Shown here: positions 18,136 through 59,595 of the stretch, piece by piece
Layout: each line of letters starts with the position of its first letter
How positions within the stretch are numbered: position 1 is the stretch's first letter
Source of the DNA: Eledone cirrhosa
Taxonomy: Eukaryota
Reading direction: 5' to 3'
Length of the DNA: 64,000 nt
Assembly: GCA_964016885.1 (NCBI GenBank)
Contig: OZ024741.1
Span: 314,836,001 to 314,900,000 of the forward strand
Program-made: the position numbers and the translations under genes
The notes under the pieces: generated by a model
The model's database searches: none
The model's input: only the letters and a program-made list of their open reading frames with translations
Told to the model about the DNA's origin: nothing

Positions 18136-20328
18136 TTTCGTTTCTGAATTTGTTTAGCAAGATTCTTTATCTGAAATCGTGTGTTGAAACCGATATTGTT
18201 ATACTTTGGGAGGGTCATGTTGCCAATAAGAAACACGCACCAGTTGCTTTCACTTCAATTTATTATAATAAATTTATAATAAATTTATAAATTTCTGGTT
18301 GGTTGGTTGGTTCCACAACCAGATAGTTGTTTATACATAGTCATAGTTCTATCGTCACACACTCTGTGACCTCTTCAGTGACTGGGGATTCCTTTCTTTG
18401 TTTCTGTGCCTCTCCTTTGTTCTGTCCTACGCCATTTTGTTTCTGTGTGTGTGTTGTTTGCTCAGTCTGCGCATGCGCCACATCCGGGTGACTGTGTGTG
18501 TTTATGTTCATTTATTTATTTGTTTATTTACATGTTACTGGTTGGTTGTTTGTTCTATGTGTGTGTGTGTTTTCATTTTGTCCTTAATTGTAAGTTGTGA
18601 TGTTGCTGTTCCACTCATATTTTCTATTTAATTTTGGTTGTAATTCTTTTATGTTTATTGCCTCTTTAATTTGTCTAAACATTGCGTCTTTTTTGTGTGT
18701 AGATTCTATTTTTATTTCTATGTTCTCTAATGTATCCTTGTGTTCTATTTTAGCATGTTGGTAGAGTACAGATGATTCTTTACTATCTTGAAGGTCTCGC
18801 CAGTGTTCATTTATCCGTTCCCCTACACTACGAGCTGTTTCACCTATGTACACTATATTTTTGTCTCTACATTGTCCTTCAGTACATCTTATGCTATACA
18901 CTACATTTCTAGTTTTACAGTTAATATGGGGGCTTATTTTACAGGTTATACATTTCTTATCTATACATGAGGTTCTTTGAAAAGGATATGTCTTGCCAAT
19001 AAGTGTTTTTACGGAGGTACCTGGTCTTTCTACTATCTTAATATTGAGTTTATGTTTATTTAGGGCCCTTCTAAATTTGTAAGCTAATTCACCTCTAGGG
19101 GTTGTATCGATGAACATTAGACTCTGGTATTTATTGCTATCATACCATGAGTTTATTCTATTAGCCTTGTTCCTAGTTCTTTCTATTCTATTCCAAAATT
19201 TGCTCCTATACAAGGGGCAGGTCCCATTTATGTCATTATTTACCATTTTTTCCCATTTGGTTCTGGCTCCTCTATACACTCTGATTTTATATCTCTGATT
19301 GTAGCCAGAGAACTGCATACGGTGGTGGAAGTGTTGTATGTGTCTCTCTAGTTCTTCGGGGTTGCACATGCGGGACACATTTCTCATCACTCGTACCAAA
19401 TCCGCAATCAGTATGTTGATTTTGGTATGGTCCGAAACGGCCGTGTTTCGGTGGATCAGATGTTTGGAAGTCATGGGTTTGGCATAATGGGAATGGAGGA
19501 TTTGTTTTTTGTTGTTAATGGTATCTAACCAGAGCTCTGTGTCTAGTACAGGTAATCGATGGTTGGGGTGTTTACTTGGGTAGTCTATAGTAACTCTAAT
19601 GCTCTGGTGGATGGAGTTTGCTATTTGCTGGATGCTTTCCATCGTGTTTTTCTCTAGTTCCTGACTGTTCTCTAGTGGGGGTGTCTTAACTACGATGTTT
19701 ATATCATCAACGTAGCGGGAGTACATTATCATGTTTAAGGGGTCTTCTAATTGTTCTTTAAGTTTAAGTTTAAGTCAACTGTCCCACCATACCATGAATA
19801 AGTTAGCTATGTCGCCTGCAATGATAACACCAATGGCTGCTCCTTCCTCTTGGGCATATCTTTTTCCATTAAATTTGAACATATGTTCCTTAAGGGTTAG
19901 TTTTATGCTGGCCCCTACCGCATGTGCAATCATTTTCTTCAGTTCATCGTGGTTTTCGGGTGTCCGATTGGCTCTGGTCCACCCGTTCCATCTATCTGTG
20001 TGGGTTTTCTTGGCCATTGAGGTAATGGTAGGTGGTCTGCCTCTTGCTGGTCTTATAGGGCACAGGTTGCTAAGGTCATATGTGTCTAGGTAATTATTAC
20101 TATAGGTAAGCTTAAGTAGGAGTCCCAGCTCACTGGTATCAATCCCACGGAACTCAACCTTTCTCTCACTGATCATTTCTACGCATTTCTCCACAGCAAA
20201 ATCCACGTCAATAGATGGATACAGGGACACAACATCCATACTGCCTATTATGCAGTTTGTTAGGTCCCTAGATCGGTTACTCACGCAGATTCTGCTGAGG
20301 AGGTCCTCCGTGCTGTCACATACATCTG
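18136..20328 (-). mobile_element. Penelope-like element family 1 (probably Neptune-like), inverted 5'-truncated copy
   Basis: SMDVVSLYPSI, YAQEEGAAIG, RYVDD, Cys-rich linker, VYSI..YIGETARS..ER..EH GIY-YIG; single stop at 19775-19777. Confidence 0.92.
18339..18383 (-). ncRNA. Hammerhead ribozyme motif of PLE family 1, core mutated (GAAA to GATA)
   Basis: Minus strand reads agtca CTGAAGA g gtcaca gagtg tgtgac GATA gaa CTA tgact. Confidence 0.6.
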
Positions 20329-57363: not shown

Positions 57364-59595
57364 TCAACAGCACCTAACATGGCCGACTACATGGCCAAAA
57401 CCAACGCGGTAAAGATGGGGAGCATCGACCGTCAACCGTGGCGGCAGAATGACAGTCCATCGTAGCGTGGAGGAACCTTCGGGGCCCGGCCTTCCAACAA
57501 CAACCCGGCCCCCCGCAGCGGCCGCCACGCCCGTGGAAAGCTATATAATCCAACGCCAGGAGGGAACAAGTGGCGGTGGGGGGAGGGAGACCATCGTGCC
57601 GGCGGTTCAACACCCTGAGAATCGGGAGAGGGACCTAGCAGATCGAGGGCCAGGCGTCCGAAGTGAAAAAAATAACGACAGACACATGTAACTGCAGAGC
57701 GGGCATCAGAGCCCCCTACAGAGAAGATGCCTGACGAAGAGCCTGGTATTTAAATGTCTGGTTAGCACCCACAATATAAAGCGCACCTACATCGGCGCAA
57801 CATCCACGACCTTTAAATCGCGGATGTATAACCACACAAACTCTTTCAAGGACCACAGTAAGAGGCACTCTACTAAGCTAGCGGACCTGGTGTGGGACTT
57901 GAAAGACAAAGGCCCTTGACTGGAGTATCGTTCGGCACGCGAATGCATACTCGGCTGCAAGTAGAAACTGTAGCCTATACCTATACGAGACCATGGAAAT
58001 AGTCGACCTGAAGGATGATGCGGTCAACCTGAAATCGGAAATGATCATGACCTGCAGACACCAGAGAAGGTGCACACTCTCCGCATGGAATCCACCGGGA
58101 AGCCCAGACTAAGGACATGCGGCTGAGCACGCACCGACCAGAGCCACAAAACTGGTTCAAGGGATCAGACACCATAGGCTGATGATAATATATGCCCCGT
58201 GGGGTAAACTAAAACAACCCAAGATGCATACCCGACTCTGCACGTTACCCTAGGCAAGGTCATCGCCTGAGCCGGGACAGTTTGACCCGGATTCCGCGGT
58301 CTTTCAGTCAAATACCTTACACCTATAGGACAACATACCTCAACCACAGTGACATACTCCAATATGGCCGGGCTAAGCACCCCCATGCATGTGTACCTTT
58401 TCAATCGAGAAAACATATATTCTCCACGTGTTCCATTTTGGAACACATATTATTTGTTCCGTATACAGACCCAATTGTGCATCTCATATTCCCCATATGT
58501 ACTATATCATAAGCATACACGTCCCTCCTTCTTTCTTCTCTTTTTTAAATATATCTATGTGACGTTATATGTATATTTTAATATATTGTATATTTATTTT
58601 ATTTATTTTATGTGTGTATATGTGTATGCGTATGTGTATATATATATATGTGTTAGTATGTACATGGTATGTGAATGTGTATGGATGTATGTATATGAAT
58701 ATACTGTTTATATTCGTGCATGTTTAGTACAAGATACATCTTTTAATGTATGACGTTACATGTATATTTTAGTATAATGTAGTTTTTTTATAGATGTGTA
58801 TGTATGTGTGTGCATGTACATATACATGTGTGTGTGTGTGTATGTGTGTGTATATATATATGTATGTGTATATATATATACATTTATTTCTTTTTTATAT
58901 ACTTATTTATTTATTTATATGTGTGTATGTATACATGCATGTATGTGTATGGATGTATGTATTTGGTTACATTGTTTATATTTGTGCATGTGTATAACAG
59001 GATGCATCCTTTCATGGATGACCCGGTATGACTCATTGTGCAGATTTATATGACTGTGACTATATCATATTTGAATACGGACAGGTATATGTATGTGTGT
59101 ATATTTATGTGTGTGAACATATACATATATACATGTGTGTTTGGGAGCGAGTCTGTTATTGTGCCTGTATATACGGACACGTGTATGTACGTGCGTGTGC
59201 GTCTGTGTGTGCGCGTGTATGTGTGAGAGAGCAGATGTACGTGGGCATGTAGGCAGGCGTCTGTGGACGCGTATGTTGTTAGTTATATGGTTGTGTGCGT
59301 ATGTGGGTGTATGTGAGTGTGTTTATATATATATATATGTGTGTGTATGTGTATATGTGTGTGTGAGTGCGCGAGTCGACTTGGGAAATAGCAAACCCAG
59401 CATGAATTCATTGAAGTGTGTCAGGCGGAGGGTCAGCTGATGGCCAGTCTGACAGAAACTATTGGCCAGAATTTATGATGACGTAGAAAAACAACAGTCA
59501 ACAGCAGAACAAGCGAGAGAGATATTTTTTTAGGCTAACGCCACAGTGGGAAAATTTGATTCGAAATTATTGCAAGTGTCCGCAAACCTGCAGGT
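57364..59595 (+). mobile_element. Penelope-like element family 4, right arm (GIY-YIG plus microsatellite-rich 3' region)
   Basis: About 57685-58112 translates CLTKSLVFKC..TYIGATSTTFKSRMYNH..SF..STKLADLVW..WSIV..TCRHQ. Confidence 0.85.

What the first reader, a model, noticed from the sequence alone, without database searches (positions are those of the whole stretch)
18136..59595. Recurrent inverted-twin PLE insertions, always with 3' ends outward
Four unrelated sequences share one architecture, two 5'-truncated copies joined head-to-head: family 1 (18136-23808), family 4 (54405-59595), the 350-bp hairpins (29471, 42058) and the nested IR (54794-55632; PLE origin weaker). In families 1 and 4 the spacer is simply the extra 5' part of the longer copy. 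Known: Penelope copies with inverted truncated segments exist. Inference: both ends of a break primed reverse transcription and the cDNAs were joined, or the template switched. This would be a systematic source of intronic palindromes.
Basis: partly seen in the sequence, partly recalled or inferred. Interest (0 to 1): 0.7.

Follow-up and report, generated by a model that had tools for sequence, protein, structure and literature searches.

The report
Head-to-head Penelope retrotransposon twin insertions
Several Penelope-like retrotransposon copies in this likely octopus DNA sit as outward-facing mirror-image pairs, a layout described long ago, but two of them are lopsided in a way that suggests both ends of one DNA break likely started the copying.

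Summary
The inverted repeats are real, but the count and novelty are overstated. Family 1 (RT + GIY-YIG; best named relative Octopus vulgaris, 65%) and family 4 (Hydra-like endonuclease) are head-to-head PLE pairs whose spacers are the extra 5' part of one copy. The two 350-bp hairpins are one event copied by a ~13-14 kb tandem duplication. The nested IR is not shown to be a PLE. Head-to-head inverted copies are a published PLE hallmark ('most frequently observed', PMC3846280). In-window, 4 of 9 orientable events are inverted, all head-to-head (p=0.06). What the window adds concerns mechanism. In family 1 a 56-nt 3' tail sits only on the 5'-shorter arm. A missed element (43394-43587) is split into two outward-facing pieces overlapping by 3 nt, the L1 twin-priming signature. 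Neither fits simple fold-back or antisense self-priming without an extra step; both fit priming from both ends of a break. Arm differences show no synonymous excess, so the arms were likely identical at birth. A third family 1 copy joins the left arm's junction to the right arm's body exactly at the duplication breakpoint, so the palindrome likely templated duplication of an EGF-like exon.

The parts
18137..18192 (-). Family 1: 56-nt 3' extension (tail) present only on the left arm; ends at (TA)n 18098-18136
   Evidence: continues an open 27-codon frame from the ATG at 18218 downstream of the hammerhead motif; similarity to the N-terminus of relative P0014 is weak (p 0.01-0.03 uncorrected; no BLASTP hit)
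18193..20329 (-). Family 1 left arm: 5'-truncated PLE (partial RT, thumb, CX4CxxC linker, GIY-YIG, 3' UTR with hammerhead-like motif at 18378); ORF open except one stop
20328..20385 (+). Head-to-head junction with a 29-nt tandem duplication of the right copy's 5' end; at most 1 nt of visible microhomology
20330..21653 (+). Family 1 spacer (1,324 nt) = extra 5' coding part of the right copy
21654..23809 (+). Family 1 right arm; hammerhead-like motif at 23622; ends without tail at ...CAATAT running into (TA)n 23806-23895
34992..37175 (+). Third family 1 copy: first 44 nt identical to the reverse complement of 20330-20373 (left-arm junction), body and 3' flank from the right arm; marks the breakpoint of the tandem duplication, inside the (CA)n of PLE family 3
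   Evidence: 37 sites side with right arm, 10 with left incl. the junction base, 9 unique; first right-arm site at arm position 168
21654..49522 (+). Tandem duplication, units about 21654-34991 and 34992-49522, 0.7-3.8% diverged by segment, with large indels
29474..29817 (.). Hairpin H1: two ~160-nt outward-facing arms, ~20-nt spacer; duplicate of H2
42059..42401 (.). Hairpin H2: arms each carry an outward-pointing hammerhead-like motif (42140 minus, 42320 plus; core CCGATGA); right arm ends at (TA)n; left arm continues into 129 nt (41930-42058) of unknown origin
51872..51965 (+). Single 5'-truncated copy of the hairpin family, same 3' end as the right arms, followed by (TA)n
43394..43522 (-). 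Family 6 split insertion, left piece A (hammerhead region; core mutated here), 121 of 129 nt identical to 63059-63188
43523..43587 (+). Family 6 split insertion, right piece B (3'-terminal 65 nt), 58 of 65 identical to 63186-63250; overlaps A by 3 nt in element coordinates
63059..63250 (+). Family 6 unrearranged copy (A then B) with a well-formed type I hammerhead-like motif at 63104, followed by (TA)n; different flanks from the split copy
54399..57317 (-). Family 4 left arm (Hydra-like linker and start of endonuclease, 655-nt internal deletion with 3-nt microhomology ATA, microsatellite-rich UTR, nested insertion 54758-55856)
57318..57363 (-). Family 4 spacer (46 nt) = extra 5' coding part of the left copy
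57364..59601 (+). Family 4 right arm with frameshifted GIY-YIG endonuclease (57713-58085); 57831-58485 absent from the left arm; ends not at (TA)n
54794..55632 (.). Nested non-coding inverted repeat, ~390-nt arms, 60-nt spacer holding a copy of an arm segment; ATAT/TA at both ends; only a CTGATGAAGG half-core near each outer end; origin unresolved (PLE or MITE)
29026..29160 (+). Host 135-nt AG/GT-bounded EGF-like exon; further copies at 41632-41766, 51086-51220, 62561-62695
   Evidence: Pfam EGF_STAB1-2 E=0.002, below cut-off

Best explanation
These are Penelope-like retrotransposon insertions in which a 5'-truncated copy faces away from its partner, and each pair was likely made in one event by twin priming: the element's endonuclease likely cut both strands of the target (often self-complementary (TA)n), both free 3' ends likely primed reverse transcription near the 3' end of the element RNA, and the two cDNAs were likely end-joined at their truncation points. 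Shown: the geometry, the spacers being the 5' excess of one copy, different 3' ends on the two arms (tail on one only), no (TA)n between the heads, and no synonymous excess between arms. Follows from TPRT geometry: an element's 3' end is always attached to the primer, so two primers facing into one break can only give 3' ends outward. Inferred: the two primers use the two start sites that flank the tail; if the first RT stops at the second primer the result is a split inversion (43394-43587), and if it displaces the second cDNA or uses a second RNA the arms overlap over kilobases (families 1, 4, hairpin). Later, the family 1 palindrome likely served as template-switch substrate for the 13-14 kb duplication.
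For: Family 1: 56-nt tail only on the left arm while the 5' excess is on the right arm, so the left arm holds sequence a fold-back copy of the right cDNA could not contain. Family 6: pieces A and B together tile the unrearranged copy once with 3-nt overlap, in opposite orientations. Arms diverge neutrally: 7 synonymous of 32 coding differences, 7.3 expected; 0 of 21 in family 4's alignable codons. Outer ends at A/T-rich points merging into (TA)n in families 1, 6 and the hairpin right arms. In vitro a Poseidon PLE cleaves and extends both strands, starts RT at two sites bounding the tail, and is predicted to dimerise (PMC11167929).
Against: Only two informative cases. Family 1's right tail could have been lost later (ATAT microhomology into the (TA)n) or trimmed by the endonuclease, as PMC8557442 suggests for tails. 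The split copy could be a later in-place inversion. That the tail is element-derived rests on its position, an open frame and only weak protein similarity. Family 6 and the hairpin are assigned to PLEs only by my hammerhead scan; Rfam found no hammerhead family at them, nor at family 1. Family 4's ends are not at (TA)n, its tail status is unknown, and its arm divergence is uneven (5.1% vs 10.8%, p=0.005). The hairpin centre has a TGTTG-CTCA-CAACA mini-stem and 17913-18017 has a 1-nt loop, which suit fold-back. Junction microhomology could not be scored for most pairs for want of a longer reference copy.
Confidence: 0.55

Rival explanations
1. Self-priming / fold-back: one cDNA (or an antisense transcript, as proposed in PMC3846280) folds back at its truncation point and is copied into the second arm; tail asymmetry arises afterwards by endonuclease trimming.
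For: Explains identical arms at birth and spacer = loop. Mini-stem at the hairpin centre and the 1-nt-loop palindrome 17913-18017. In the nested IR the spacer belongs to the left copy. Self-annealing of 3' flaps gives inverted duplications at L1 breaks (10.1101/2024.12.14.628481, passages).
Against: Predicts the copy arm is nested in the template arm; violated by family 1 (tail on the 5'-shorter arm) and family 6 (piece B is not contained in A) unless a separate trimming step is added, and for family 6 the fold-back point would have to coincide with the trimming point within 3 nt.
Confidence: 0.22
2. Post-insertion rearrangement: ordinary single insertions were later turned into palindromes or inversions by host replication/repair (template switching, sister-chromatid fusion), unrelated to retrotransposition.
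For: The region is demonstrably rearranged: tandem duplication, a recombinant third copy, a 655-nt deletion, a locally inverted 67-nt segment at 53145-53211.
Against: Inversions stop at the element ends and do not include flanks; no local inverted twin is seen for the three RTE-like copies at 178-9576 or for the dispersed short repeats; the same layout is reported for PLEs across animals.
Confidence: 0.1
3. The non-coding inverted repeats (nested IR, 17913-18017, 49958-50130, perhaps the hairpin) are MITEs/foldback derivatives of DNA transposons that target TA, not PLE products. This rival concerns only those loci.
For: Nested IR: symmetric ends with ATAT/TA on both sides, no ORF, no complete hammerhead, and it appears to split a SINE-like stretch (weak A-box and B-box matches with 2-3 mismatches).
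Against: Hairpin family has outward hammerhead-like motifs and a lone 5'-truncated copy with the same 3' end at another site. Nested IR has CTGATGAAGG 20-25 nt from each outer end, pointing outward.
Confidence: 0.45
4. Two independent insertions of the same family into the same (TA)n hotspot, in random orientation.
For: (TA)n tracts here hold several stacked unrelated insertions.
Against: No (TA)n at any head-to-head junction; arms show no purifying-selection signal expected of different source elements; 0 tail-to-tail pairs.
Confidence: 0.04

Closest known systems
Inverted pLTR / inverted 5'-truncated copy of endonuclease-positive Penelope-like elements (D. virilis Penelope; A. vaga Pen1-6; Naiad, Hydra; PMC2377424, PMC3846280, PMC8557442)
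   Same: Inverted 5'-truncated copy directly adjacent at the 5' end, head-to-head, optional tail at one end only, (TA)n targets, hammerhead motif near the 3' end.
   Different: No upstream direct partial tandem in these copies; family 1's inverted arm is 2.1 kb rather than a short pLTR; tails here are 56 and about 65 nt rather than 30-40; one case has arms that overlap by only 3 nt.
L1 twin priming (5' inversions; Ostertag and Kazazian 2001, seen only as a reference title and through passages in PMC12350158 and 10.1101/2024.12.14.628481)
   Same: Two target ends prime on the element RNA; 5' part inverted relative to the 3' part; small deletion or duplication at the inversion point. Family 6 at 43394-43587 has this shape.
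   Different: L1 second priming is far inside the RNA and arms scarcely overlap; here the second start lies ~60 nt from the 3' end and arms can overlap over kilobases; no poly(A); target duplication unreadable in (TA)n.
Hydra clade PLEs (PMC8557442 section 11)
   Same: Families 2, 4 and 8 share an endonuclease with CxCx5C linker and CxxC / CxH motifs around the conserved E and N.
   Different: All copies are 5'-truncated and decayed; RWK and DKT motifs not testable; family 4 lacks a canonical hammerhead and (TA)n ends; no tree was built.
Neptune/Nematis clades
   Same: Family 1 has a CX4CxxC motif just upstream of GIY-YIG and a (TA)n target.
   Different: Clade not resolved; the relatives retrieved carry no clade labels.
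Template switching at inverted repeats (spacer inversion; PMC8604942, listing and abstract start only) and microhomology-mediated replicative duplication
   Same: The third family 1 copy has the left junction on the right body, with 2-nt microhomology (AC) to a (CA)n tract.
   Different: Here the arms are 2 kb PLE copies and the outcome is a 13-14 kb tandem duplication carrying a host exon.

Membership tests
Endonuclease-positive PLE (family 1) | RT domain followed by C-terminal GIY-YIG endonuclease in one ORF | tested here: met
   Pfam RVT_1 E=5e-4 and GIY-YIG E=0.0015, both below curated cut-offs; 18 relatives at 27-65% identity, collinear over RT and EN
Endonuclease-positive PLE (family 1) | Hammerhead motif in the 3' repeat, upstream of the ORF's first codons | tested here: met
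   Type I topology (helix I 5 bp, helix II 7 bp) in all three copies by own scan, matching the minimal form in PMC4209133; Rfam finds none; cleavage not tested
Endonuclease-positive PLE (family 1) | Optional short 3' tail at one end only | tested here: met
   56 nt on the left arm only; longer than the 30-40 nt reported
Endonuclease-positive PLE (family 1) | Direct partial tandem forming an upstream pLTR | tested here: not met
   No direct upstream copy; both copies are 5'-truncated, and this feature is optional in the published descriptions
Neptune/Nematis (family 1) | CX2-5CxxC linker before GIY-YIG | tested here: met
   CIDKKCITC in the translation
Neptune/Nematis (family 1) | Placement in an RT phylogeny with labelled references | not tested
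   No labelled reference set in hand
Hydra clade (family 4) | CxCx5C linker; CxxC and CxH flanking the conserved E and N | tested here: inconclusive
   Intact in family 2 (CNCRNRSNC, CNLC, CLH); family 4 is 44-49% identical to it over the core but decayed (GYCSAGTQC left, frameshifted CNCR right, CSLY, CRH)
Hydra clade (family 4) | RWK and DKT motifs in the N-terminus/RT | not testable with these tools
   Copies are truncated downstream of RT
Hydra clade (family 4) | Canonical hammerhead and (TA)n target | tested here: not met
   Only a degenerate CTGATGG...stem...AGAA; ends not at (TA)n
PLE (350-bp hairpin family) | Hammerhead near a fixed 3' end, variable 5' truncation | tested here: met
   Full topology on H2 left arm, partial on H2 right; lone copy 51872-51965 shares the 3' end; core is CCGATGA; Rfam negative
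PLE (350-bp hairpin family) | Link to an RT/EN ORF | not testable with these tools
   No coding part in the window; no eukaryotic genome collection available
PLE (nested IR 54794-55632) | ORF or complete hammerhead; fixed 3' end | tested here: not met
   No ORF, half-core only, no other copy
MITE (nested IR) | Terminal inverted repeats with short target duplication, many full-length copies | tested here: inconclusive
   ATAT or TA on both sides; single copy in window
Twin-priming inversion (family 6) | 5' part inverted against 3' part, breakpoints adjacent in element coordinates | tested here: met
   3-nt overlap
Twin-priming inversion (family 6) | Target-site duplication and primer complementarity at the internal start | tested here: inconclusive
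   Both flanks are TA-rich; A ends at ...ACTA next to TA repeats; no empty allele

The most novel reading that the evidence does not exclude
The inverted repeats of PLEs in general are made by twin priming at the two tail-flanking start sites of one RNA by a dimeric RT-endonuclease, with strand displacement deciding whether the product is a kilobase palindrome or a split inversion; this would replace the antisense self-priming model, explain why the tail is on one end only, and make PLE palindromes recurrent seeds of template-switch duplications that expand octopus EGF exon arrays.
Probability: 0.3. Interest if true: 0.6.

Novelty: new member of a known kind. Interest (0 to 1): 0.33.

Why it matters
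The layout itself is ordinary for PLEs. How it forms is still called undefined in PMC8557442, and the one explicit proposal I found (self-priming on an antisense template, PMC3846280) makes a prediction that two events here do not meet without an added step. That gives a cheap genome-wide statistic (which arm has the tail, which is 5'-longer, how much the arms overlap) able to separate the models. The recombinant third copy is also a concrete case in which a PLE palindrome marks the breakpoint of a host exon duplication.

Tried and rejected
Rfam scans of the whole window (150 of 181 matches listed, none a hammerhead) and of four sub-regions found no hammerhead family, including at family 1 whose PLE identity is clear from protein, so Rfam is uninformative here. 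Pfam gave only sub-threshold RVT_1/GIY-YIG hits and nothing for families 2 EN, 3 and 7. Confirming the family 1 tail by protein homology gave no BLASTP hit to P0014; by shuffle test the best N-terminal match was P0014 residues 6-26 (p 0.02-0.03 uncorrected, 37 proteins tried) and an unrelated internal stretch of P0035 scored higher: suggestive only. A wider protein search meant to fetch full-length relatives stayed in the queue and gave no result. Different-subfamily origin of arms: rejected. Arm-to-arm conversion in the hairpins after duplication: no supporting site. Sequencing fold-back chimeras: rejected for the pairs because arms differ by 2-11% with indels. Candidate tails of the hairpin (129 nt), nested IR (36 nt), 17913 palindrome (80 nt) and family 4 have no second copy to test against and no clear frame; the 36 nt may instead be the head of an interrupted SINE. 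Supplements of PMC8557442 (consensus library, Hydra alignment) were not read and bear on clade assignment.
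Full report
Setting. The window is repeat-rich animal DNA. The best named relatives of the family 1 ORF are Octopus vulgaris hypothetical proteins at 61-65% identity, so an octopus source is likely but not shown. Four copies of a 135-nt AG/GT-bounded cysteine-rich exon (29026, 41632, 51086, 62561; weak Pfam EGF match) define a tandem array; units 1 and 2 are a recent duplication, 0.7-3.8% diverged by segment.

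Observation. Family 1 is a left copy on the minus strand (18137-20329) and a right copy on the plus strand (about 20329-23809) between two (TA)n tracts. The 1,324-nt spacer is the N-terminal coding part of the right copy, with a 29-nt tandem duplication at the junction. Family 4 has arms 54399-57317 and 57364-59601; its 46-nt spacer continues the left copy's frame; the left arm lacks 655 nt present in the right arm (3-nt microhomology) and carries a nested insertion. The two 350-bp hairpins are one event duplicated: three diagnostic sites group left arms and right arms across hairpins, none groups by hairpin, and flanks are shared. The nested IR has no ORF and only half a hammerhead core; its ends are symmetric with ATAT/TA on both sides, so a MITE is as likely as a PLE.

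Identity. Family 1 encodes RT then GIY-YIG (sub-threshold Pfam hits; 18 collinear relatives) with a CX4CxxC linker, the Neptune/Nematis feature in PMC8557442. Families 2 (30460-33650), 4 and 8 (about 60354-62091) share an endonuclease with the Hydra-clade motifs of that paper. A scan for type I hammerhead topology (pattern recalled, form checked against PMC4209133) gave 5 loci against a null mean of 0.6 and maximum 3 in 200 resamplings; the five are three family 1 copies, one hairpin arm and family 6, i.e. three independent families (4 of 200 resamplings reach 3), all near outer ends and pointing outward. A looser scan gave 7 loci against 1.0 and adds the other H2 arm and one unrelated hit. 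Rfam finds none of them.

Tally. Collapsing duplicates, 9 insertions have coding or hammerhead evidence of polarity: 4 are inverted (family 1, hairpin, family 6 at 43394, family 4) and 5 are single (families 2, 3, 8, the lone hairpin-family copy at 51872, family 6 at 63059). A tenth fragment near 16800-17785 looks PLE-like by eye only and is left out, as are three non-coding palindromes of unknown polarity. All 4 of 4 inverted cases are head-to-head; p=0.06 under 50:50.

What is known. PMC3846280 (passages and Discussion read) describes inverted pLTRs with an optional tail on one of them, calls head-to-head 'the most frequently observed' arrangement and proposes self-priming on an antisense template. 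PMC8557442 (passages and section 11) draws an inverted 5'-truncated copy at the 5' end as typical, with a 30-40 bp tail often at one end and (TA)n targets, and calls the cycle still undefined. PMC2377424 (passages) shows large inverted terminal repeats as the commonest Penelope form. PMC11167929 (parts 1-2 of 4) shows in vitro cleavage and extension of both strands, two RT start sites bounding the tail, and a predicted dimer; in the parts read it does not address inverted copies.

Mechanism. Three results bear on it. First, arms were likely identical at birth: family 1 arms differ at 47 of 2136 sites, and of 32 coding differences separating the left arm from both right-type copies 7 are synonymous against 7.3 expected; family 4 shows 0 synonymous of 21 in the two stretches I could frame (this deficit, p about 0.004, is unexplained). 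Second, family 1's left arm has 56 nt at its 3' end that the right arm lacks, while the right arm has the 5' excess. Any fold-back, from cDNA or from antisense RNA, makes the 5'-shorter arm a copy nested within the longer one, so it cannot supply this tail without a further step. Third, a hammerhead-bearing element present intact at 63059-63250 occurs at 43394-43587, at a site with different flanks, as its first 129 nt inverted followed by its last 65 nt, overlapping by 3 nt. That is the shape of L1 twin-priming inversions (passages in PMC12350158 and 10.1101/2024.12.14.628481; the original paper seen only as a title). I infer that both ends of one cut primed RT, one at the tail end and one just inside it, and that the cDNAs were end-joined; outward 3' ends then follow from TPRT geometry, and a (TA)n target offers the same primer on both ends. 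Whether one RNA (with strand displacement) or two were used cannot be told for the long pairs. Against this: two cases only; later tail loss or in-place inversion are possible; family 4 lacks (TA)n ends and diverges unevenly (5.1% vs 10.8%, p=0.005); two centres have mini-stems that suit fold-back. Confidence 0.55.

The third family 1 copy (34992-37175) begins with 44 nt identical to the reverse complement of the left arm's junction, yet sides with the right arm at 37 sites from position 168 onward and shares its 3' flank. It starts inside the (CA)n of PLE family 3, which is cut there in unit 1 and continues to its 3' end in unit 2, with 2-nt microhomology. So the duplication breakpoint used the palindrome: either a double template switch or a spacer-flipped isomer followed by duplication (inferred). 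A false duplication in the assembly is not excluded without reads.

Verdict. A real but known PLE architecture, overcounted, with a modest and testable contribution to an open mechanistic question. Interest 0.33.

Noticed in passing
window 34955-35035: Breakpoint of a 13-14 kb tandem duplication lies in the (CA)n of PLE family 3 and carries 44 nt of the inverted family 1 junction.
   Followed up: yes
window 29026-29160, 41632-41766, 51086-51220, 62561-62695: Four intact copies of a 135-nt phase 1-1 EGF-like exon, diverging at the protein level; host gene not identified and no other exon found.
   Followed up: partly
window 17913-18097: 105-nt near-perfect palindrome with a 1-nt loop, TA on both sides, followed by 80 nt before the next (TA)n; could be another short twin with a tail or a MITE.
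   Followed up: partly
window 44326-44466 and 49958-50130: A 141-nt direct repeat (13 differences) brackets the family 2 + family 3 block; the second copy ends in a 28-33 nt inverted copy of its own start.
   Followed up: partly
window 60188-60353 and 62252-62417: Hydra-like PLE family 8 (about 60354-62091, minus) is flanked by a direct duplication of at least 166 nt of host intron (9 differences), far longer than a usual target duplication.
   Followed up: no
window 30460-33650 and 33652-34991 (continuing 48075-49928): Hydra-like family 2 is followed directly, same strand, by a 5'-truncated GIY-YIG element of another type (family 3) with a canonical-looking hammerhead core at 49809.
   Followed up: partly
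window 57364-57830 vs 56861-57317: Family 4 arm differences avoid third codon positions (1 of 21) and are twice as dense as in the mid-UTR; unexplained.
   Followed up: partly
window 29474-29817 vs 42059-42401: The duplicated hairpins differ at 3.8% (11 of 13 transitions) against 1.7% in the adjacent exon region (p=0.05).
   Followed up: no
window 178-9576: Three non-LTR RT elements with (AAT)n tails, one with a 1139-aa open frame (4257-7676); none has an inverted twin.
   Followed up: no
window 38732-39498: Transposase-like open frame (38767-39498) with no Pfam match, partly within a 470-nt segment absent from the paralogous unit.
   Followed up: no
window 53145-53211: 67-nt segment inverted relative to its paralogues at 23896-23963 and 37190-37257, beside a (TA)n.
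   Followed up: no
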